A DNA stretch of 64,000 nt from Candidatus Caldarchaeum sp. GTDB taxonomy: Archaea > Thermoproteota > Nitrososphaeria_A > Caldarchaeales > Caldarchaeaceae. The position numbers and the translations under genes were made by a program. Positions 22,182 to 29,727 of the stretch are shown here, one piece after another. Numbering within the stretch: the first letter of the stretch is position 1; each line of letters opens with the position of its first letter. The notes under the pieces were generated by a model. That model saw only the letters and a list, made by a program, of their open reading frames with translations, searched no databases and had not been told where the DNA came from. The stretch covers positions 3,295 to 67,294 of the forward strand of contig JAWBRA010000009.1 of the NCBI GenBank assembly GCA_038844785.1. Direction: 5' to 3'.

Positions 22182-22585
22182 GCGAAGTGTCGGTAAGACC
22201 TCCCGCATACTGGCGTTCTAGACCTTTCATATACAGGCTTGAGGGCAGCCGCTGCACCGTATGCGGTCACTTCCATCCATATAAGAGGCTTGTATGCAGG
22301 AGATGCAGGTCTAAACGTTTAGACGAAGACAGACTTCCCTCAAAGGGAAGATTGCTGTATTACACGGTTGTGACGCAGGCGCAGCATGGGTTTGAAAACA
22401 ACACGCCGTACATAGTTGGATTGGTGGAGATAGATGACGGCACCCAGCTTGTTGGCCAGCTGACCGACTGCGATCCAGAAGACCTGAAGCCCGGAACAGT
22501 TGTTGAACCTGTTGTCAGAAGAATAAGAGCCGACGGCGACTCTAGGCTTATTGTGTACGGGGCTAAGTTTAAACCCCTTGTTTAA
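22178..22585 (+). CDS. DUF35 OB-fold / zinc-ribbon protein (thiolase-HMGCS scaffold)
   Basis: 135 aa with a Zn ribbon (CTVCGHFHPYKRLVCRRC) followed by an OB-fold region. Overlaps the thiolase gene by 4 nt. Confidence 0.8.
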   Translation: MSEVSVRPPAYWRSRPFIYRLEGSRCTVCGHFHPYKRLVCRRCRSKRLDEDRLPSKGRLLYYTVVTQAQHGFENNTPYIVGLVEIDDGTQLVGQLTDCDPEDLKPGTVVEPVVRRIRADGDSRLIVYGAKFKPLV

Positions 22586-23361
22586 TGGCTCATAACGCTC
22601 TTCCATACGAGTAGCGTCGCATACTCTCGGGGGATGGCTTCCTGCTGCGCAACCCTTTCTATCTCTGCTCTCAACACGGACTCCGCCCTAGGGCCGTGTG
22701 TCAGCATATAACGTTTTTTAACATCTTCAAACAGCTTTGCTACTTCTTCCTTGCTTGAGGTTAGGTCCGTTATTGTGCGGGGTAGGTCCGACAGTTGTTT
22801 AATCATGTCGTCGACAGTCTTCAATCTGTTTCGGATGCTTGTTAGCTTCTTTCTGAGCTCTGGAATACGGGCTTCCAGCTCCTCCTTCAGTCCCACGTTT
22901 TTCGCGTTTGGTTTATCTCCTTCGAGCTGCATAGTGTTAAGCTCTATGCTGGACCATATTAGCTCCTCTTCGACCTCGGCGAACTCAGAGCCTAAAGCGT
23001 CCCTGGCCCTTTTGAGCTTCTCCAAAACATTTTCCGACTTCACAAGAACAGCTCTCCTTCTCTCTGCTAGACGGCTGAGAATGCTTCGTATAAGCTGTGG
23101 CCTTAATTCATCGAGCTTCATACAGTAGGCGATGAAATTTTTGTCAATGTTCCTAAGCCTCTCAACCTCCTTCATAACCTCGTCGTAGAGCTGGAGCGCT
23201 TCGTCAAGGTCTCCACCTTCCTGTTGCGGCTGAGGCTGAGCCTGCTCCTGCGGTGGCTCCTCTTTCACCACGGGTACCTCCACATCCTGCTGGACAGGCA
23301 AAGCCTCAACCTCAGGAGGCTCCGAAGCCTTTTTCACTTTCAAGACTATTTTTTTCACCAC
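22582..23361 (-). CDS. Hypothetical coiled-coil protein with N-terminal Pro/Gln/Glu-rich low-complexity region
   Basis: 259 aa. Residues about 10-50 are PEVEALPVQQDVEVPVVKEEPPQEQAQPQPQQE, and the remainder is heptad-rich. Same strand as, and immediately downstream of, the JAMM protease gene. Confidence 0.55.
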   Translation of the reverse strand: MVKKIVLKVKKASEPPEVEALPVQQDVEVPVVKEEPPQEQAQPQPQQEGGDLDEALQLYDEVMKEVERLRNIDKNFIAYCMKLDELRPQLIRSILSRLAERRRAVLVKSENVLEKLKRARDALGSEFAEVEEELIWSSIELNTMQLEGDKPNAKNVGLKEELEARIPELRKKLTSIRNRLKTVDDMIKQLSDLPRTITDLTSSKEEVAKLFEDVKKRYMLTHGPRAESVLRAEIERVAQQEAIPREYATLLVWKSVMSH

Positions 23362-23393: not shown

Positions 23394-24002
23394 TCAAATG
23401 CCGAACAGCTTTTTAGCTTTTCCAAGCAGGCCTCCCCCCTCTCCCTCCGATGGATTGTTCGCGGTCTTACCCCCAGACTCTGCAACAATCTGGCGGATGT
23501 CAAACGTGGCCAACGCATGGAGAGTGCTTTCAAGCAGCTTTGTCCTATGTACTCCTATAGAAACTGGGAGGGAGACAACCTTGCCCTCTTTGGAGATTTG
23601 GAAAACCTTGAAATCTAGTGATGAAATTTCTCGGGTTCTTGCGTAGTTTACGGGGTCTATAACCAACGCAACCGCTTTCGGATACATGAGCTGATACCTT
23701 TTTTGAGTGTCTATGTCTGTAGGGGATAGGAAAACGTCCAGCCCAGGATGTGAATGGTACCAGCCAACTATGTAAAGTCCTTTGCCTTCTTGTGCCAACT
23801 GTTCAGCTACACGTGACATCACAGATTCATCGAGTTGGACGTAGGCAGGCGTCCCATACTGCTCGCCCGTCATAGCATCCCATATCTCTAAAACCTTGCC
23901 AGCCGACTTGCCGACCAAAAGGCCAGCCACCTCCTTGTTCAAATTTGCGGTTGAATGCTTAACTATCTTGGCGAGGGCTAGGGGGTATATCCTTACACGC
24001 AT
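23394..24002 (-). CDS. JAMM/MPN+ metalloprotease, Rpn11-like deubiquitinase / pro-ubiquitin processing peptidase
   Basis: 202 aa with the complete JAMM motif: a Glu in EVAGLLVGK, then GWYHSHPGLDVFLSPTD (H-x-H-x7-S-x2-D). Divergent from the Ub-E2-E1-RING operon. Confidence 0.85.
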   Translation of the reverse strand: MRVRIYPLALAKIVKHSTANLNKEVAGLLVGKSAGKVLEIWDAMTGEQYGTPAYVQLDESVMSRVAEQLAQEGKGLYIVGWYHSHPGLDVFLSPTDIDTQKRYQLMYPKAVALVIDPVNYARTREISSLDFKVFQISKEGKVVSLPVSIGVHRTKLLESTLHALATFDIRQIVAESGGKTANNPSEGEGGGLLGKAKKLFGI

Positions 24003-24119
24003 TGGGTAAACAATGGATAAAGGTCAATAATAAGAATGACTTGACATAGGTAGCCTACGCCTCTTTGAATGTTATCGAGATACCTCTCCGGCCGTTTCGG
24101 TGTTTTACACATGGTTAAA

Positions 24120-24129
24120 CCTTATATAC
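24120..24129 (+). promoter_or_regulatory. TATA box (CTTATATA) for Ub-E2-E1-RING operon, leaderless
   Basis: Lies about 25-30 nt upstream of the ATG at 24153, which supports the internal Met (MKIKIV..) as the true start. Confidence 0.45.
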
Positions 24130-24152
24130 GCTCAAAAGAAAAAAACTGCAGA

Positions 24153-24416
24153 ATGAAGATAAAGATTGTTCCCGCAGTTGGTGGAGGTACACCCTTGGAG
24201 CTTGAGGTTTCACCCAACGCGACAGTTGGTGCTGTCAGGACTAAGGTGTGTGCTATAAAGAAGCTTCCCCCCGACACTACTAGGTTGACATACAAAGGGA
24301 GGGCTTTGAAAGATACTGAAACCCTACAAAGCATAGGGGTGTCTGACGGTGATAAATTTGTGTTGATAACTAGGACGGTGGGGGGAGTTGGAAAACCTTT
24401 ACGTGGAGCTGCCTGA
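24153..24416 (+). CDS. Ubiquitin-like beta-grasp protein precursor (Gly-Gly followed by 9-aa C-terminal extension)
   Basis: 87 aa from MKIKIV. The mature 78 residues end ..LITRTVGG, and VGKPLRGAA follows. It carries a ubiquitin-like hydrophobic patch and LTYKGRALKD, comparable to ubiquitin's LIFAGKQLED. The maximal ORF starts at 24069, but the TATA position favours 24153. Confidence 0.8.
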   Translation: MKIKIVPAVGGGTPLELEVSPNATVGAVRTKVCAIKKLPPDTTRLTYKGRALKDTETLQSIGVSDGDKFVLITRTVGGVGKPLRGAA

Positions 24417-24894
24417 GACCGCGTGGTACAAACGTCTGGCGCTCGAGTATTCGTTGATGCAGGAGCATGAGCCTACGTTCAACCCTGTGGAAAACGACCT
24501 CACCCACTACGAGGGCGTAATAATAGGAACAAACATGTATGAAGGCGGGTACTTTAGGGTAGAGATACTTCTCCCACGGTCGTATCCTTTTTATCCACCT
24601 GACGTTGTTTGGCATACTCGTATCTGGCATCCTAACTTTTCCGACAGCGTGCCAGCCCGTGTGTGTGAGTCCGTGTTTAAAGACCATTGGTCGCCGTCTC
24701 TAAGGCTTGTAGCCGTGATAGAGTCTCTTCGAAACCTTTTGAACAACCCAAACCCGGAAGACCCCCTGAACCCTGTGGCGGCGTTCGAGTACAAGAACAG
24801 GCCGGACCTTTTCATGGCTAGAGTTAGACAGTTTATAGAAGAATATGCAACACCTGAGCAGGCGTTTAAACAAAGCAAGCGAAAGGGGCTCTAG
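24388..24894 (+). CDS. Ubiquitin-conjugating enzyme E2 (UBC fold)
   Basis: 168 aa with the HPN motif (WHPNF) and active-site context ARVCESVFKDHWSPSLRL (compare canonical C..L...W.P). The start overlaps the Ub precursor tail by 29 nt. Confidence 0.85.
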   Translation: MENLYVELPETAWYKRLALEYSLMQEHEPTFNPVENDLTHYEGVIIGTNMYEGGYFRVEILLPRSYPFYPPDVVWHTRIWHPNFSDSVPARVCESVFKDHWSPSLRLVAVIESLRNLLNNPNPEDPLNPVAAFEYKNRPDLFMARVRQFIEEYATPEQAFKQSKRKGL

Positions 24895-24896
24895 GT

Positions 24897-26087
24897 TTGG
24901 GTGAAAGCCCCACGCTAGCCAGATACGATAGACAGCTAAGGCTTGATGGATGGGACCAGTACAAGCTGATGTCCGCAAAAGTTGTGATCGCCGGAGTTGG
25001 TGCTCTTGGATGTGAGGCGGCTAAAAACCTGGCTCTGATGGGTGTTGGTGAACTTTTGCTTGTTGATAATGATGTGGTGGAACTGTCTAACCTAAGCCGT
25101 CAGATGTTGTACATGGATGAGGATGTTGGAAAGCCGAAGGCCTTGGTTGCTGAGGACCGCGTTAAAAAAATGAACCCGTCGATCAACGTTGTTGGCCTGC
25201 AGATGGATGTGCGTCAAATTCCCGAGGAGGTTTTCGCGAAGGCTGATGTTCTGGTAAGCTGTGTTGACAACTGGCCTACTAGGAGGTGGATAAACTCTAT
25301 GGCCGTTGAGGTGGGTAAACCGTTAGTAGACATTGCCACAGACGCATACTATGGAAATGTTCAAGTAGTCGTCCCAGGGAAGACGGCATGCATTGAATGT
25401 CATGCTGAGGCCTTGATTCCAACTGAGGTTCAGGCTGCAGAATGTTCTCTTAGGCGGAGAAAGCCGGAGGATTTGATTGCCGAACTCTATGAAAAGGGAA
25501 TATCTTTGGACCGACAGGAGGCTGAAGAGCTTTTCCGACATAATATTAAAACGCTTTATGACATCAAGTATGCTCCGCAAAGACTCGTAGACTCTCTGGA
25601 TGAAAATGTAAGAAGCCTTGTTTTAAGACTTCGTGGTCTTTTAAACCCTAAGATGCCTGCGCTCCAAAGCGTTTCCGCAACCATTGCAGGGTTGGGTGTT
25701 TTCGAAACAGTTAGGATACTGCATAAAGGGCTTCTTGGAAAGCCTTTCAGCGGTTTGTTTATGTACGACGGTCTCAGGGGAAGGTTGACGAAGGTGCAGC
25801 TTGACAGGAACATGTTATGTCACGTGTGCAGCGTGGACGAAGAACAGCCCATAGAGCTGGAGATATCAAACAAGGAAAAAGTTGCCGACATACGGGAGAG
25901 AATCGCCAACAAGTTCATGTTCCCCGACGCACGGATACAGTTTGGTGCGAAGCTTCTCGACGACTCTGCTGAGGTTAGGGAAATCGGCTTAACGGACCGG
26001 GACATCCTGTACGTACACTCGACGAGAAGGGCTACGCCTCTAGCTTTACGGGTGAAAATCCTTGAAGATAGTGATCAAAGAGGTTAA
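24897..26087 (+). CDS. Ubiquitin-activating enzyme E1-like (ThiF/MoeB/UBA fold) with C-terminal ubiquitin-fold domain
   Basis: 396 aa with a Rossmann motif (GVGALGCEAAKNL...LLVDND). Two CxxC pairs (CIEC and CHVC) are as in MoeB/ThiF zinc sites, and there is a candidate catalytic Cys in AAECS. The C-terminal roughly 90 aa are beta-grasp-like. It begins 2 nt after the E2 stop. Confidence 0.85.
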   Translation: MGESPTLARYDRQLRLDGWDQYKLMSAKVVIAGVGALGCEAAKNLALMGVGELLLVDNDVVELSNLSRQMLYMDEDVGKPKALVAEDRVKKMNPSINVVGLQMDVRQIPEEVFAKADVLVSCVDNWPTRRWINSMAVEVGKPLVDIATDAYYGNVQVVVPGKTACIECHAEALIPTEVQAAECSLRRRKPEDLIAELYEKGISLDRQEAEELFRHNIKTLYDIKYAPQRLVDSLDENVRSLVLRLRGLLNPKMPALQSVSATIAGLGVFETVRILHKGLLGKPFSGLFMYDGLRGRLTKVQLDRNMLCHVCSVDEEQPIELEISNKEKVADIRERIANKFMFPDARIQFGAKLLDDSAEVREIGLTDRDILYVHSTRRATPLALRVKILEDSDQRG

Positions 26088-26292
26088 CGCAGGGTTCTGG
26101 AACCCTTTCGAAGATGAGGATAGAACGAAGCAGAAGCTTAATTTCTGCGTTATCTGCGGGCTTGAAATTTCAAACGAAAAAACATATTCATGCCCCCACT
26201 GTGGTTCTGTGGGGCATATGTCATGTTTTGACGACTGGCTGCTGATAAGAAAGTCATGCCCGCTGTGCAGGAGGCCTATAGCGGAGGGATGA
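26062..26292 (+). CDS. Small RING-type (C4HC3) zinc finger protein, putative E3
   Basis: 76 aa with C-x2-C-x11-C-x2-C-x4-H-x2-C-x10-C-x2-C (CVIC..CPHC..H..C..CPLC), plus a Trp in the last loop as in RING E2-binding surfaces. Overlaps the E1 3' end by 26 nt. Confidence 0.8.
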   Translation: MKIVIKEVNAGFWNPFEDEDRTKQKLNFCVICGLEISNEKTYSCPHCGSVGHMSCFDDWLLIRKSCPLCRRPIAEG

Positions 26293-26298
26293 ACCAAT

Positions 26299-26610
26299 AT
26301 GGCTGAAGAAAAGAACGAAAAAGTCATAGAGCTCGACTTTTTGGAGACTCCAAAAGGCCCTGTAGCTCGTTTTGACGGAGTTAAACAGCTTGCCGAGTTG
26401 GTTGTAGAGGTTTTTCAAGAGTTGGAAAAGTTGAATGAAAAAATCAAATCCTTTGAGAAGGAGGAAAAAGCACCGGAGAGTATCGAAAGAAGGTTGAAGG
26501 ACATAGAGGACCAGCTTGCTGTCCTTTCGGACGACATGCGTGAGATACTGAACGCCCTGGGAGAGCTTTCTGCCACAGTAGCCCAGCTTAGGAAAGCCCT
26601 CAAATTATGA
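26299..26610 (+). CDS. Small coiled-coil protein, possible distal member of Ub operon
   Basis: 103 aa, highly charged and heptad-rich (ELEKLNEKIKSFEKEEK..., DIEDQLAVLSDDMREILNALGEL). Starts 7 nt after the RING gene stop. Confidence 0.5.
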   Translation: MAEEKNEKVIELDFLETPKGPVARFDGVKQLAELVVEVFQELEKLNEKIKSFEKEEKAPESIERRLKDIEDQLAVLSDDMREILNALGELSATVAQLRKALKL

Positions 26611-27438
26611 GGTTAGAAAAGCACGTCTCATCTCAGTTATCAGCTCGTTCAGCTCAGCCCTCCGTTTCTCCATCTGTGCAACCTCGTTCGAAAGAGATTC
26701 TTTATAGGCTTCGAGCTTGTTGATTTCTTCTTTAAGCTTGTTGGCTGTCGCTATCAATTTCTCAGCCTCAGCCTTGCTGTTTTCGAGAATAGCAAGCTTA
26801 TCCTCCAGCTCCTTCTCCCTACGTATCATCCGCTCCATTCTGATCTCTCTGAGCTTGAACATTTTGTCCATCTCTTTTCCAAAGCTTTCAAGCTTCTTCT
26901 GAGAATCTTCAAAGGCGGTCAAGTAACGCTCCTTAAGCATGTTTATCTCCTCCTCCAGACTCTCCTTTTTACGCATTAAGTCCTTTAGGGTTTCTTGGGC
27001 TTCGGCTATCTGCCGCTCTTTCTGCTCAAGCTCTGCTTTCCAGCGAGCCACCTCTTCTCTCAGCATCGCTAAGCTTTCTCTCTCAGTTTTGTATCGTTGA
27101 GCTTCCTTCATAAGGTTCTCCCTTTCCTTGAACAGCAAGTCAGCTGTTTCATGCAAGCTTTCACGCAAGGACTTAATCTCCTCCGTTACCGCTTTTAAAG
27201 AGTCTAGTGTGTAGTCCAACACGGCAGTCTTTTCAAGCAAGCCCTGCAAACGAGCCATAGACTTATGAGGTGTTGAAAACTGCTCAAGAACCAACCTTAC
27301 GTCCTCCTTGATTTTGGCCAACGCCTCCTCAACAAGCCCTATTCTCTCCTCCATCCGTTCAGTGAGCTGGACCCTTAGAGCAGCAACCTCTTTGCGGAGG
27401 TCTGCTATGCTGTCGGGCCTTTTGGAAAGCAGCCCCAT
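26605..27438 (-). CDS. Long coiled-coil protein
   Basis: 277 aa that is almost entirely heptad-repeat charged sequence (E/K/R/L rich). Convergent with, and overlapping, the 103-aa coiled-coil gene by 6 nt. Confidence 0.55.
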   Translation of the reverse strand: MGLLSKRPDSIADLRKEVAALRVQLTERMEERIGLVEEALAKIKEDVRLVLEQFSTPHKSMARLQGLLEKTAVLDYTLDSLKAVTEEIKSLRESLHETADLLFKERENLMKEAQRYKTERESLAMLREEVARWKAELEQKERQIAEAQETLKDLMRKKESLEEEINMLKERYLTAFEDSQKKLESFGKEMDKMFKLREIRMERMIRREKELEDKLAILENSKAEAEKLIATANKLKEEINKLEAYKESLSNEVAQMEKRRAELNELITEMRRAFLTS

Positions 27439-27570
27439 ACCTTACTTAACATAAACAACATCGTTATAAACCCTATCTGTATGAAAAAACCCGAAAACTC
27501 GTGGAAATCGGTTCCTCCTGTTTTAAAAACATGTTTTTATATGGTGCGGTATCCAGAGAATTAGACGGCC

Positions 27571-28260
27571 ATGGTGGTGTCTGAGCAGCGGCTTCTGATA
27601 AGGTTTTTTAAGCTAGGGTCGTTGCTTGCACTGGTAGGCAGCATACATATTCTCACGCTTCTTCTCCCGTGGTATGTGGTGAGGGCCGACACTGTTTCCA
27701 GAACTATTGTCAGCGGGTATCTCCTGCTTGAGACGCTTCTTCTGTCGGTCATGGGAGGGGTTTTGGCAGGCGTGTCCCTCCTTGCCACATCATTCTCGAC
27801 TAGGGCAGGGGTTGTCAGAATTGTGTTGTCGGTTCTAGCTATTCTGGGAGGGGTTTTAGCCTTGTTCTCCCCGATATACTTAAACCTCATCATAATACCG
27901 CGTCTCAACGTCGCAGGAGAGCCAGACCTTGGTTTTTTCGCATCTCTTTTCTCAGCAGTTGCTCTAATTGCGCTCGGCCTTATAGTGGTTTTAACAAGGC
28001 CTCAGAAAGTTGAGCTACCCTACCCCGGCTACTACGGGATGTCAGAGATCACAACACCTTCGGCGCCGGCTGAGCAGACAACGATGGAGCCTGTGGACAC
28101 GGTTGACGAGGGGGTTGTTTGTCCAATATGCTACACGACGGTTACGGCGGAAAACGCTGTCAAATGCTCCTCCTGCGGCGTAGTCTTCCACTCGGGCTGC
28201 GCCGACGCATACGTCAACATCAACGGAACATGTCCAAACTGCGGCCGAGCAGTTGTTTAA
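27571..28260 (+). CDS. Membrane-anchored (4 TM) protein with C-terminal C4HC3 RING-like zinc finger; paralog of the small RING E3
   Basis: 229 aa with four hydrophobic helices in the first about 150 aa, then a soluble linker. The C-terminus is C-x2-C-x11-C-x2-C-x4-H-x2-C-x9-C-x2-C (CPIC..CSSC..H..C..CPNC), the same spacing as the small RING protein at 26062. Confidence 0.7.
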   Translation: MVVSEQRLLIRFFKLGSLLALVGSIHILTLLLPWYVVRADTVSRTIVSGYLLLETLLLSVMGGVLAGVSLLATSFSTRAGVVRIVLSVLAILGGVLALFSPIYLNLIIIPRLNVAGEPDLGFFASLFSAVALIALGLIVVLTRPQKVELPYPGYYGMSEITTPSAPAEQTTMEPVDTVDEGVVCPICYTTVTAENAVKCSSCGVVFHSGCADAYVNINGTCPNCGRAVV

Positions 28261-28275
28261 CACGGTGCTTGGCTG

Positions 28276-29727
28276 ATGTCGCTTGAAAACATAGTAAAGC
28301 TAGGCCTAGAGAAAGGGTTTTTCTTTCCTTCGGCTGAGATCTACGCTAACGCGCCGGCTGGGTTCTGGGACTACGGTCACTTGGGCGTGTTGATGAAGCA
28401 GAAATACATTGCTGCGTGGCATAGGCTTCTAGTTCGCCGGGACGATATGATACTGGTTGACGGCTCTCAAATCCTACCCCGTGGAGTTTTCATAGCGTCG
28501 GGCCATATTGACACTTTTGCGGACCCTGTGAGCAAGTGCACGGCATGCGGCGCGGTTCACCGAATAGATAGGCTTCTTGAGGAGAGGCTGAATATTAAAG
28601 TGCCTGAGAGGACGCCGCCCGAGCAGATTGAAACCATCATAAGAAATTCGGGTTTCCGGTGTCCTCTCTGCGGTGGGGTGTTGGGTCCGGTTTCGCTTTT
28701 CAACATGATGTTTAAGGTTTCTGTGGGGGCTTCAGGTGAAGAAGCCTACCTAAGGCCTGAGACGTGCCAAAACATATTTGTAGACTTTCTGCGTCTGTAC
28801 AAGATCTCAAGACGGCGTCTGCCGATAGCGATGGCGCAAGTGGGAAAAAGTTTTAGAAACGAAATTTCCCCTCGTCAATCGCTCATCAGGCTCAGAGAGT
28901 TCACCCAAGCGGAGGTTGAGGTTTTCTACTCGCCGCACAAGGCCAACGAATTTCCCAAAATGGAGGCGGTAAAAGAATATCAGCTCAACATTTTGGTTGA
29001 CGACAAGCTGAAACAGTTTTCATGTTCCGACGCCGTAGCATCTGGTCTTGTGTCAAGCTGGCTGGCGGCTTATTATCTGGCTTTGGTGCAGGATTTTTAC
29101 CTGAGGGTCGGTGTGCCCAGGGAGAGGCTTAGGTTTAGAAGGCTGGGCGAAGATGAGAAGGCGTTCTATGCGGCTGAGGCATGGGATCTTGAGGTCTTGG
29201 TTGACGGTGAATGGATTGAGCTAGTCGCATGCAACAACAGAACCGACTACGACCTGACGGGCCATGCACGTGTGAGCGGGGTGGATTTAAAAGTTGTCGA
29301 AGACGGTATAGGGTTTGTTCCCCATGTATTCGAGCTTTCGATGGGTGTGGACAGAAGCATCCTCACCCTGCTTCAGCTCGCGTACACGGTTGAAGAAGGC
29401 AGGACTGTGCTAAAAATCCACCCGTCCCTAGCGCCTTACTCGGCCGCTGTATTTCCTCTGGTCGATAAGCCTGAGCTGTCTGAATTCGCTCAAAAACTTT
29501 ACGAGCGGCTGAAGCTTGACTTCGATGTCTTCTATGACGAAAGCGGCAGCATAGGAAGAAGATACAGACGGCAGGACGAAATCGGCACACCCTACTGCAT
29601 AACCGTGGACTACCAATCCTTGGAAGACAACACTGTGACCGTGAGGAACAGGGACACAATGAAGCAGGATAGAGTACACGTCACAGAGGTCAAAGAATAC
29701 TTGGACAAGGGATTGCGGCTGGTTTAA
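28276..29727 (+). CDS. glyS: Glycyl-tRNA synthetase (archaeal/eukaryotic-type alpha2 class II)
   Basis: 483 aa with class II aaRS motifs, including the motif 2 region FRNEISPRQSLIRLREFTQAE and motif 3 (GVDRS). C-terminal anticodon-binding domain. Confidence 0.85.
   Translation: MSLENIVKLGLEKGFFFPSAEIYANAPAGFWDYGHLGVLMKQKYIAAWHRLLVRRDDMILVDGSQILPRGVFIASGHIDTFADPVSKCTACGAVHRIDRLLEERLNIKVPERTPPEQIETIIRNSGFRCPLCGGVLGPVSLFNMMFKVSVGASGEEAYLRPETCQNIFVDFLRLYKISRRRLPIAMAQVGKSFRNEISPRQSLIRLREFTQAEVEVFYSPHKANEFPKMEAVKEYQLNILVDDKLKQFSCSDAVASGLVSSWLAAYYLALVQDFYLRVGVPRERLRFRRLGEDEKAFYAAEAWDLEVLVDGEWIELVACNNRTDYDLTGHARVSGVDLKVVEDGIGFVPHVFELSMGVDRSILTLLQLAYTVEEGRTVLKIHPSLAPYSAAVFPLVDKPELSEFAQKLYERLKLDFDVFYDESGSIGRRYRRQDEIGTPYCITVDYQSLEDNTVTVRNRDTMKQDRVHVTEVKEYLDKGLRLV

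What the first reader, a model, noticed from the sequence alone, without database searches (positions are those of the whole stretch)
27571..28260. Second, membrane-anchored RING-like zinc finger with identical ligand spacing to the operon's small RING E3
A 229-aa protein has four predicted TM helices and ends in C-x2-C-x11-C-x2-C-x4-H-x2-C-x9-C-x2-C. The 76-aa RING protein at 26062 has C-x2-C-x11-C-x2-C-x4-H-x2-C-x10-C-x2-C. The identical C4HC3 architecture (RING-variant or PHD-like) implies a paralogous E3. This one is tethered to the membrane, analogous to eukaryotic MARCH/RING-CH membrane ligases. It sits 1.3 kb downstream of the Ub operon. A membrane-targeted branch of an archaeal ubiquitylation system has, to my knowledge, not been characterised.
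Basis: seen in the sequence. Interest (0 to 1): 0.8.

Follow-up and report, generated by a model that had tools for sequence, protein, structure and literature searches.

The report
Membrane-anchored RING finger beside archaeal ubiquitin genes
A hot-spring archaeon encodes, next to its eukaryote-like ubiquitin genes, a second RING-finger protein fixed in the membrane by four helices, which suggests that ubiquitin tagging at membranes may predate eukaryotes, although its activity is untested.

Summary

- **RING domain.** It scores above Pfam's zf-RING_2 cut-off. An AlphaFold model (pLDDT 94.8) has only RING E3 domains among its top 50 PDB neighbours. The positions equivalent to two of the three srfp residues shown by mutagenesis to matter are kept; the third, the "linchpin" Arg, is not.
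- **Topology.** Charge distribution puts the RING in the cytoplasm. The membrane part is predicted to resemble claudin/PMP22-type tetraspans, in fold only.
- **Distribution.** The family is confined to Aigarchaeota (Caldarchaeales).
- **Gene order.** TM-RING follows E1-srfp and two coiled-coil genes in 14 of 16 E1 loci examined. Where the cluster is split, TM-RING stays with glycyl-tRNA synthetase (30 of 30 loci) and usually with srfp and the coiled-coil genes.

Most likely it is a membrane-resident RING E3, or a membrane anchor for an srfp-containing E3 complex. It is not a MARCH/RING-CH or PHD type. I found no published description. Databases only call it "RING finger protein". I rate it a new variant of a known kind.

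The parts
27571..28260 (+). TM-RING gene (229 aa): four-helix membrane domain, acidic linker and C-terminal RING
   Evidence: ORF. Exact sequence is NCBI MEM2580105.1, 'RING finger protein', Ca. Caldarchaeum sp.. Conserved full length in 22 clusters.
27583..27993 (+). Tetraspan membrane domain. TM helices are residues 5-31 (27583-27663), 53-73 (27727-27789), 79-112 (27805-27906) and 120-141 (27928-27993). An outer beta-hairpin spans residues 33-48 (27667-27714), with a further strand at 115-118.
27994..28119 (+). Cytoplasmic linker (residues 142-183). It is disordered at 149-166. An acidic conserved stretch before the RING forms a short strand.
   Evidence: pLDDT is below 50 for residues 149-166. 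Length varies among homologues.
28120..28242 (+). RING domain, C4HC3 variant: C184, C187, C199, C202, H207, C210, C221, C224
27534..27542 (+). TATA-like TTTTTATAT about 30 nt upstream of the ATG; candidate own promoter (leaderless or short leader)
   Evidence: Read directly from the sequence. Promoter function is inferred from general archaeal promoter geometry.
26605..27438 (-). cc277: 277-aa coiled-coil protein, divergently transcribed from TM-RING across a 132-bp gap. A TATA-like TTTATAA lies on the minus strand at 27464-27470.
   Evidence: Conserved next to TM-RING in group A and B loci. Only coiled-coil noise against Pfam, NCBIfam and PDB.
26299..26610 (+). cc103: 103-aa coiled-coil protein following srfp
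26062..26292 (+). srfp: 76-aa soluble RING protein, orthologue of the experimentally validated C. subterraneum E3 (CSUB_C1477). It overlaps the end of E1 by 26 nt.
   Evidence: PMC3082918 and PMC5654768.
24897..26087 (+). E1 (ThiF family, with a weak C-terminal ubiquitin-like domain hit)
24388..24894 (+). E2 (UQ_con). HPN motif at residue 81, and loop residues P67-F68 and P103-S104.
24069..24416 (+). Ubiquitin precursor. The likely true start is the Met at 24153. GG is followed by a 9-aa propeptide.
   Evidence: Homologous gene calls are about 86 aa. The propeptide is described in PMC5654768.
23394..24002 (-). Rpn11-like JAB/MPN deubiquitylase
22582..23361 (-). cc259: coiled-coil protein next to JAB, conserved in most but not all clusters
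28276..29727 (+). Glycine-tRNA ligase. It starts 15 nt after the TM-RING stop and is the invariable downstream neighbour of TM-RING.
   Evidence: NCBIfam PRK04173, 510 bits. Adjacency in 30 of 30 loci.

Best explanation
The gene encodes a membrane-resident RING-type ubiquitin ligase subunit of the Aigarchaeota ubiquitin system.

Proposed mechanism:
1. A four-helix tetraspan domain has both termini in the cytoplasm and carries a small conserved beta-sheet on the outer face. It anchors the protein in the cell membrane.
2. A roughly 40-residue acidic, partly disordered linker tethers a C-terminal RING to the cytoplasmic face.
3. The RING binds two zinc ions in cross-brace fashion. Site 1 would be C184, C187, H207 and C210. 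Site 2 would be C199, C202, C221 and C224.
4. It docks the cluster's E2~Ub through the surface formed by I186, Y214 and P222.
5. It promotes ubiquitin transfer onto membrane or membrane-proximal proteins, possibly clients recognised laterally by the tetraspan domain. The Rpn11-like JAB enzyme reverses the modification.
6. It probably acts within a conserved four-gene module with the soluble RING srfp and two coiled-coil proteins.

Shown here: the motif, the family assignment, the predicted fold, the predicted topology, the residue conservation and the gene-order conservation.

Inferred: zinc binding, E2 binding, ligase activity, substrates and complex formation.
For: - Pfam zf-RING_2 scores 35.3 bits, above the 27.3 cut-off, over residues 184-224.
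- A family profile against PDB sequences hits Arkadia (9.6e-12), then RLIM, ZNRF1, EL5, RNF165, RNF4, RNF38, RNF13, Hrd1 and gp78.
- The AF2 model of residues 166-229 has pLDDT 94.8 with a beta-beta-alpha core. All of its 50 best Foldseek PDB hits are RING E3 domains, several of them in complex with E2 or E2~Ub.
- All eight ligands and the Pro after Cys7 are invariant in both the srfp and TM-RING families. Position 186 is Ile or Leu, and position 214 is Tyr or Trp in all but one member. The srfp equivalents of the last two, I30 and W58, were shown by mutagenesis to be needed for ubiquitylation (PMC5654768).
- The E2 keeps its RING-binding loops.
- Topology: loop 2 has net charge +2.4, against -1.0 for loop 1 and -0.3 for loop 3.
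- Synteny: TM-RING sits behind E1-srfp-cc-cc in 14 of 16 E1 loci with enough flank. These span Caldarchaeum, Pelearchaeum-like, HR01, Terraquivivens and Wolframiiraptor, with E1 identity down to 47%.
- The srfp-cc103-cc277-TM-RING module stays together even where E1/E2/Ub lie elsewhere.
- The family is restricted to Aigarchaeota lineages, about 13 clusters at 50% identity among 1.84 billion proteins.
Against: - No biochemical data exist for this protein.
- The linchpin position after the last Cys is Gly here and G/N/Q/K across the family. In srfp it is always R/K (R69), and R69A impaired ubiquitylation.
- The RING is not measurably closer to srfp than to generic RINGs.
- The gene has its own promoter-like region and is not in the Ub-E2-E1-srfp transcription unit.
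- Its most constant neighbour is glyS, not the ubiquitin genes.
- In two kinds of lineage E1 loci lack it nearby. I could not prove that the genomes with the detached TM-RING loci also carry E1/E2/Ub.
Confidence: 0.6

Rival explanations
1. TM-RING is a non-catalytic or weakly catalytic RING partner. It recruits the active soluble RING srfp, and with it E2~Ub, to the membrane, together with the two coiled-coil proteins. This would resemble inactive partners in eukaryotic RING pairs such as BARD1, MDMX or BMI1.
For: - srfp, cc103, cc277 and TM-RING form a module that moves as a unit, independent of E1/E2/Ub.
- The linchpin residue is not conserved in TM-RING but is always R/K in srfp.
- The N- and C-terminal flanks of the RING are predicted as short strands, as seen in dimeric RINGs. 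That comparison is from my own knowledge and was not tested.
Against: - The E2-contact positions (Ile, aromatic, Pro) are conserved, which an inert partner would not need.
- Group C loci and the L039 type show TM-RING and srfp can be separated in the genome.
- No interaction prediction could be run.
Confidence: 0.2
2. TM-RING is a ubiquitin-independent membrane zinc-finger protein whose real functional partner is glycyl-tRNA synthetase or another process. On this view its closeness to the Ub operon is inherited gene order.
For: - TM-RING lies immediately upstream of glyS in 30 of 30 loci, with a gap of 9-124 nt in 28 of them. This holds even where everything else around differs.
- Two E1 locus types lack it nearby.
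- Prokaryotic RINGs are not all Ub-related (my own knowledge).
Against: - The family occurs only in the archaeal group that has this eukaryote-like Ub system.
- It is linked to the validated E3 srfp in most lineages.
- It keeps the E2-binding residues, and its best sequence and structure matches are E3 ligases.
- No other biochemical role is known for this RING type.
Confidence: 0.12
3. The C-terminal domain is a PHD-like reader, or a pair of simple zinc ribbons, rather than a cross-brace RING.
For: - The C4HC3 composition with C-x2-C ... x4-H-x2-C formally fits the PHD consensus.
- There are weak Pfam hits to PHD (17.3 bits), C1_1, Zn_ribbon_3 and DZR.
Against: - All those hits are below their cut-offs, while zf-RING_2 is above its own.
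- No PHD or zinc ribbon appears among the top 50 structural neighbours.
- A PHD finger scores 20 bits against 48 bits for Arkadia.
- There is no Trp two residues before Cys7. The aromatic residue is at the RING-H2 position.
Confidence: 0.03

Closest known systems
srfp, the small RING finger protein of Caldiarchaeum subterraneum (CSUB_C1477; Nunoura 2011, Hennell James 2017)
   Same: It is in the same gene cluster and has the same eight-ligand spacing. It shares the Ile, aromatic and Pro E2-contact positions and the same Pfam family.
   Different: - srfp is a 76-aa soluble protein with a conserved N-terminal GFW(N/D)P motif and an invariant R/K linchpin.
- TM-RING has a 4-TM domain and a long linker, and its linchpin varies (Gly here).
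- Identity outside the ligands is only 19%.
Eukaryotic transmembrane RING-H2 ligases (RNF13/RNF167 PA-TM-RING, plant ATL/EL5, Hrd1/synoviolin, gp78/AMFR, ZNRF3)
   Same: They have a membrane anchor followed by a cytosolic RING. They are among the best sequence and structure matches to this RING.
   Different: - The canonical C-x-H for ligands 3 and 4 is replaced by C-x2-C. V204 sits at the usual His position and C199 is the substitute ligand.
- The anchor is a claudin-like tetraspan, not a single TM or an Hrd1-type bundle.
- There is no PA or GLD domain.
- No homology is detectable in the membrane part.
MARCH / RING-CH (RINGv) membrane ligases, e.g. KSHV K3
   Different: - K3 scores only 20.8 bits against 47.7 for Arkadia.
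- No RINGv hit appears among the listed Pfam matches.
- From my own knowledge, MARCH RINGs lie N-terminal to their TM helices, whereas here the RING is C-terminal.
Prok-RING_1 (PF14446; Burroughs, Iyer & Aravind 2011)
   Same: These are prokaryotic RING fingers found in neighbourhoods with Ub, E1, E2 and JAB. From my recollection of the Pfam description, bacterial members carry TM helices.
   Different: The window protein scores 13.9 bits against a cut-off of 29.1. A divergent family member reaches 28.9. The source paper could not be read here.
Claudin / PMP22 / LHFPL / TARP / Cav-gamma / MP20 tetraspan superfamily
   Different: - Sequence identity is 4-16%.
- There is no Pfam claudin-family hit.
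- Loop 1 has no Cys, so there is no W-GLW-C-C signature.
- The sheet has three strands rather than five.

Membership tests
RING finger (zf-RING_2 type E3 domain) | Eight Cys/His zinc ligands with spacing compatible with a cross-brace | tested here: met
   C184, C187, C199, C202, H207, C210, C221 and C224. They are invariant in all aligned full-length members.
RING finger (zf-RING_2 type E3 domain) | Profile score above the curated threshold | tested here: met
   35.3 bits against a gathering score of 27.3, E=1.4e-8. PDB profile hits to RING E3s reach 9.6e-12.
RING finger (zf-RING_2 type E3 domain) | Beta-beta-alpha cross-brace fold | tested here: met
   This is prediction only. AF2 pLDDT is 94.8, with strands at 196-199 and 205-207 and a helix at 208-218. 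The top 50 Foldseek PDB hits are all RING domains. Zn-ligand distances could not be measured.
RING finger (zf-RING_2 type E3 domain) | E2-contact residues: hydrophobic between Cys1 and Cys2, aromatic on the helix, Pro after Cys7 | tested here: met
   I186 (I or L in the family), Y214 (Y or W, L once) and P222 (invariant). The srfp equivalents I30 and W58 are functionally required.
RING finger (zf-RING_2 type E3 domain) | Linchpin Arg/Lys directly after the last Cys, which stabilises closed E2~Ub | tested here: not met
   G225 here. The family shows G/N/Q/K at this position. An Arg or Lys follows one position later in Caldarchaeum members.
RING finger (zf-RING_2 type E3 domain) | E2 binding and stimulation of ubiquitin transfer | not testable with these tools
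   This needs the reconstituted E1/E2/Ub assay of PMC5654768.
RING-H2 (C3H2C3) subclass | His at ligand positions 4 and 5 (C-x-H-x2-H) | tested here: not met
   V204 aligns with the canonical His4, and C199 supplies the ligand instead. The pattern is C4HC3. 120 of the 137 best RING-only hits to the family profile have C-x-H-x2-H.
RING-CH / MARCH (RINGv) | RINGv profile match and a RING N-terminal to the TM helices | tested here: not met
   No RINGv among the listed Pfam hits. K3 scores 20.8 bits, E=2.5e-3. Here the RING is C-terminal to the TM helices.
PHD finger | PHD profile above threshold and PHD-like structural neighbours | tested here: not met
   17.3 bits against a cut-off of 24. No PHD in the top 50 fold hits. 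PHF21A is at E=3.7e-3 only.
Prok-RING_1 (PF14446) | Profile score above threshold | tested here: not met
   13.9 bits against 29.1 for the window protein. The L014 homologue scores 28.9.
Claudin/PMP22 tetraspan superfamily | Four TM helices with N and C termini inside and an extracellular beta-sheet | tested here: met
   Predicted only. The sheet has three strands rather than five.
Claudin/PMP22 tetraspan superfamily | Sequence signature (W-GLW-C-C in loop 1) or a Pfam PMP22_Claudin, Claudin_2 or LHFPL match | tested here: not met
Aigarchaeota extended ubiquitin gene cluster | Conserved position behind E1-srfp-cc-cc in other genomes | tested here: met
   14 of 16 E1 loci with sufficient flank. 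The exceptions are L038 and L039.
Aigarchaeota extended ubiquitin gene cluster | Genome-level co-occurrence with Ub, E1 and E2 where the genes are not adjacent | tested here: inconclusive
   Detached TM-RING loci (groups B and C) and E1 operons without RING genes both exist. One pair, L026 and L052, comes from the same metagenome, Ga0105163. No same-genome proof was obtained.

The most novel reading that the evidence does not exclude
Aigarchaeota may possess a dedicated membrane arm of a eukaryote-like ubiquitin system. On this reading a four-gene module assembles at the cytoplasmic face of the membrane: the soluble RING srfp, two coiled-coil proteins and a tetraspan-anchored RING. It ubiquitylates membrane proteins for extraction, degradation or sorting, as a prokaryotic forerunner of ERAD or MARCH-like surveillance. 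Two further features would add to this. The anchor could be a genuine prokaryotic representative of the claudin/PMP22 fold. The invariant pairing with glycyl-tRNA synthetase could reflect an ancient functional link like the human GlyRS-NEDD8 E2 chaperone relationship.
Probability: 0.2. Interest if true: 0.85.

Novelty: new variant of a known kind. Interest (0 to 1): 0.6.

Why it matters
The Caldiarchaeum system is the best-characterised prokaryotic E1/E2/RING-E3 cascade, but its physiological substrates are unknown. Only the soluble srfp has been studied.

A conserved second RING, fixed in the membrane and genetically coupled to srfp and two coiled-coil proteins, gives a concrete, testable lead. 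The place to look would be the membrane. The four-gene module would be a candidate complex. The assay needed already exists.

If the protein is active, membrane-directed ubiquitylation would be older than the eukaryotic endomembrane system. A predicted claudin-like fold in an archaeon would also be of interest to people studying the origin of tetraspan membrane proteins.

Tried and rejected
- Foldseek against AFDB50 was not available on the machine. No search for predicted-structure relatives of the membrane domain could be made.
- Model coordinates are not exposed to scripts, so Zn-ligand distances and the proximity of the conserved H26, S59 and S100 could not be checked.
A3 was used instead.
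- The broad family alignment A4 was too divergent for the metagenome scan. The divergent-clade alignment A5 was used.
- The cc277 profile against PDB gave only generic coiled-coil matches such as spike HR, SMC and designed bundles. Pfam and NCBIfam likewise. I assign no function.
- PADLOC gave no hit for TM-RING, srfp or E2. E1 and JAB gave only generic E1 and JAB similarity. I rejected the idea of a known anti-phage Ubl system.
- I tested whether TM-RING is specifically closest to srfp using cross-family HMMs. Scores of about 30 bits are no better than the generic Pfam RING profile, so paralogy by local duplication remains plausible but unproven.
- I tried to show that genomes with detached TM-RING loci still have E1/E2/Ub, by matching contig lengths and assembly accessions. 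Only a same-metagenome match was found.
- Burroughs et al. 2011 and the 2012 review, the most likely places for an earlier mention, are not held.
- The other papers checked do not mention this protein.
Full report
**Source and observation**

The window comes from a Candidatus Caldarchaeum MAG. The 229-aa product of 27571-28260 is identical to NCBI MEM2580105.1, named only 'RING finger protein'. The E1 and srfp of the cluster are MEM2580101 and MEM2580102.

The ORF map shows this order:
- a coiled-coil gene (22582-23361, minus strand);
- an Rpn11-like JAB gene (23394-24002, minus strand);
- ubiquitin, E2 and E1;
- the 76-aa srfp (26062-26292);
- a 103-aa coiled-coil gene;
- a 277-aa coiled-coil gene on the minus strand;
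- the gene in question;
- glycine-tRNA ligase, 15 nt further on.

The Cys/His positions are C184, C187, C199, C202, H207, C210, C221 and C224. The pattern is C-x2-C-x11-C-x2-C-x4-H-x2-C-x10-C-x2-C, identical to srfp. A relaxed eight-ligand pattern over all six frames of the window finds only these two sites. Hydropathy gives four hydrophobic segments.

**The zinc finger**

Pfam places residues 184-224 in zf-RING_2 at 35.3 bits, above the 27.3 cut-off. PHD (17.3), C1, zinc-ribbon models and Prok-RING_1 (13.9) all fall below their cut-offs.

A profile of the family's C-terminal domains, searched against all PDB sequences, hits RING-H2 ligases first: Arkadia at 9.6e-12, then RLIM, ZNRF1, EL5, RNF165, RNF4, RNF38, RNF13, Hrd1 and gp78. 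The RING-CH protein K3 and a PHD finger appear only at E about 3e-3.

AlphaFold2 on residues 166-229 with a 17-sequence alignment gives pLDDT 94.8 and a beta-beta-alpha core. All 50 best Foldseek matches in the PDB are RING E3 domains, many of them crystallised with E2 or E2~Ub. None is a PHD finger or a zinc ribbon. I could not inspect coordinates, so the cross-brace is inferred from these neighbours rather than measured.

The HMMER alignment to Arkadia shows what is unusual. V204 occupies the canonical His4 position of RING-H2. A cysteine three residues upstream of Cys3 (C199) supplies the missing ligand. The domain is therefore a C4HC3 variant of a RING-H2-like finger.

The same holds for srfp. 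In one lineage its C-P-H-C is C-P-Y-C (L005), so the His that Hennell James et al. counted as ligand 4 is not conserved, while the cysteine they called C3B is.

Among the 137 best RING-only hits to the family profile in 1.84 billion proteins, 120 have the canonical C-x-H-x2-H. About ten share the C-x2-C-x4-H arrangement.

**Residues that matter for ligase function**

In an alignment of both families, the eight ligands and the Pro after Cys7 are invariant and the Ile between Cys1 and Cys2 is nearly so. The aromatic residue four positions after Cys6 is Tyr or Trp in every sequence of that alignment. Across the wider TM-RING family, position 186 is I or L, position 214 is Y or W (L once), and P222 is invariant.

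The srfp equivalents were tested experimentally. I30Q abolished ubiquitylation, W58A impaired it, and R69A (the linchpin) also impaired it (PMC5654768).

The linchpin is the weak point. TM-RING has Gly225 here and G/N/Q/K across the family, whereas srfp always has R or K. The window's E2 keeps the loop-4 and loop-7 residues that contact RINGs.

**The membrane part**

The full-length AlphaFold2 model (23 sequences, mean pLDDT 83.3) has:
- four long helices at residues 5-31, 53-73, 79-112 and 120-141;
- a beta-hairpin in the first loop (33-38 and 44-48);
- a strand in the third loop (115-118);
- a disordered linker at 149-166.

Across 17 family members the second loop carries a net charge of +2.4, against -1.0 for the first loop and -0.3 for the third. 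By the positive-inside rule both termini, and hence the RING, are cytoplasmic.

This is a fold resemblance only. Sequence identity is 4-16%, no claudin-type Pfam family is hit, and loop 1 has no cysteines.

The domain is more than a greasy anchor. W34, G49, S59, S100 and G121 are invariant, and R11, H26 and G67 nearly so, down to about 29% overall identity. The profile search found no homologue of this domain outside the family.

**Distribution**

A word-indexed search found 22 clusters. An exhaustive profile search found about 13 full-length clusters at 50% identity. Every named member is from Aigarchaeota-type lineages: Caldarchaeum, Pelearchaeum, HR01, Calditenuaceae, or records labelled only 'Nitrososphaerota', 'Thaumarchaeota' or 'Aigarchaeota archaeon'. 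One divergent cluster is labelled 'candidate division WOR-3 bacterium'. I did not follow that up.

The C. subterraneum reference genome has the protein (UniRef 'RING-type domain-containing protein', 79% identical). All members keep the same ligand spacing, with one C-x4-C variant at the last pair.

**Gene order**

Starting from E1, I examined 16 distinct E1 loci with enough downstream sequence. In 14 of them TM-RING sits behind E1-srfp-cc-cc(minus strand). These are the window, L001, L003, L005, L007-L010 and L032-L037. They include Terraquivivens and Wolframiiraptor, with E1 identity down to 47%. Three further loci end before that point.

The two exceptions are informative:
- L038 has JAB|Ub-E2-E1 followed by unrelated genes. 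Ten near-identical copies from different samples show the same.
- L039 has the cluster through srfp-cc-cc and then a malic enzyme gene.

Starting from divergent TM-RING sequences, an iterative HMM search of all ORFs shows the complementary halves:
- Group B loci (L014, L017-L022, L040-L042) have srfp-cc103-cc277(minus strand)-TM-RING-glyS with no E1, E2, Ub or JAB within 8-10 kb.
- Group C loci (L015, L023-L026) have TM-RING-glyS alone.
- In L016 the srfp-cc-cc block has moved 6.7 kb downstream and is inverted.

So the cluster has been broken at two different points in different lineages. The two RING genes and the two coiled-coil genes usually stay together.

TM-RING is followed by glyS in all 30 loci where both could be scored. 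The gap is 9-124 nt in 28 of them. This holds even where the genes beyond glyS differ: NADH dehydrogenase in this window, PhoU_div-EndA in most group A loci, and NTPase-Trm1 in group B.

I could not prove that the genomes with detached TM-RING loci also carry E1/E2/Ub. The nearest evidence is that an E1-only operon (L052) and a group C locus (L026) come from the same metagenome.

**Transcription**

TM-RING and cc277 diverge from a 132-bp spacer. Each has a TATA-like element about 30 nt upstream of its start codon: TTTTTATAT at 27534-27542, and TTTATAA on the minus strand at 27464-27470. On general knowledge of archaeal promoters, TM-RING thus has its own promoter. It may be co-transcribed with glyS rather than with the Ub-E2-E1-srfp unit.

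**Explanation**

The most economical reading is a membrane-resident RING E3, or E3 subunit, that brings E2~Ub to the cytoplasmic face of the membrane. The tetraspan domain would provide localisation and perhaps lateral recognition of membrane clients, as claudin-fold proteins such as TARPs and LHFPL4 do for channels. That comparison is from my own knowledge.

The variable linchpin and the tight genetic coupling to srfp and two coiled-coil proteins keep a second model alive, in which TM-RING is mainly the membrane anchor of an srfp-containing complex.

A ubiquitin-independent role tied to glyS cannot be excluded. However, it does not explain the conserved E2-contact residues or the restriction of the family to the archaeal group that has this ubiquitin system. 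A PHD or zinc-ribbon reading is effectively excluded. No known anti-phage system is matched.

**Comparison with the known, and novelty**

Several things are new:
- the setting, an archaeal cluster whose soluble E3 has been reconstituted;
- the C-x2-C replacement of C-x-H, shared with srfp;
- the predicted claudin-like tetraspan anchor;
- the four-gene module;
- the fixed pairing with glyS.

Nunoura 2011, Hennell James 2017, Hua 2018, a 2023 Asgard study and a 2024 review do not mention the protein. Grau-Bove 2015 only counted several zf-RING_2 genes in aigarchaeotes. Burroughs et al. 2011, who catalogued prokaryotic RINGs, could not be consulted. Databases already label the protein a RING finger.

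I therefore rate it a new variant of a known kind, of moderate to good interest. Its main value is as a directly testable lead to the unknown substrates and cellular site of archaeal ubiquitylation.

Noticed in passing
window 26062-26292; L005 7961-8221: srfp is C4HC3, not C3H2C3. The His inside C-P-H-C that Hennell James et al. counted as ligand 4 is Tyr in one lineage (C-P-Y-C), while the flanking Cys pair is invariant. In L003 and L005 the first loop of srfp is x12 instead of x11.
   Followed up: partly
window 28260-28276; 30 loci (L001-L037): TM-RING is always immediately upstream of, and co-oriented with, glycine-tRNA ligase. The gap is 9-124 nt in 28 of 30 loci, even where all other neighbours differ. 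Human GlyRS is reported to bind the NEDD8 E1 and protect charged E2 (Mo et al. 2016, as cited in PMC10995212). Whether that is related is unknown.
   Followed up: partly
window 26062-28260; L014 8423-10771; L040 8472-10747: srfp, cc103, cc277 and TM-RING form a four-gene module. It persists as a unit in lineages where Ub, E2, E1 and JAB are not within 8-10 kb. The two coiled-coil proteins have no recognisable family. Faint coiled-coil hits to CC_Bre1, HmpF and Mod_r are not significant.
   Followed up: partly
L038 and L043-L052; L039: The ubiquitin cluster is split at two different points in different Aigarchaeota lineages. One break is after E1 (JAB|Ub-E2-E1 alone). The other is after cc277 (the cluster without TM-RING).
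   Followed up: partly
L005 5389-7875; L035 8023-9591; L037 4472-5202: There are local rearrangements of the cluster. In L005, E1 is preceded by HypD instead of Ub and E2. In Terraquivivens (L035), CitMHS fragments and a TnpB-like piece are inserted between E2 and E1. In Wolframiiraptor (L037), the JAB gene appears fragmented into two small ORFs.
   Followed up: no
L001 569-1678; L005 3910-5022; L032 3190-4317: A Vps4-like MIT-AAA ATPase lies 2-4 kb upstream of the ubiquitin cluster in several relatives, but not in this window. Proteasome subunit genes lie 5-7 kb downstream of TM-RING in L014, L032, L033 and L040.
   Followed up: no
window 24069-24416: The ubiquitin ORF as listed (115 aa) probably starts at the internal Met at 24153, giving about 87 aa. 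It ends ...GG followed by VGKPLRGAA, matching the 9-residue propeptide that Rpn11 removes in C. subterraneum.
   Followed up: partly
window 26062-26150: srfp has a strongly conserved N-terminal motif, G-F-W-(N/D)-P-(F/W/Y), ahead of the RING. TM-RING lacks it. It could be a substrate- or partner-binding element, by analogy with the N-loop of an Asgard RING E3.
   Followed up: no
P0028 (188 aa); P0115 (244 aa): Two database members of the TM-RING family keep the membrane domain but lose the RING through an apparent frameshift. This is either assembly error or pseudogenisation.
   Followed up: no
window 27646, 27745, 27868 (codons of H26, S59, S100): Three invariant or nearly invariant polar residues sit inside TM helices 1, 2 and 3 of the tetraspan domain. 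This hints at a specific intramembrane site. Their spatial proximity could not be checked without model coordinates.
   Followed up: no
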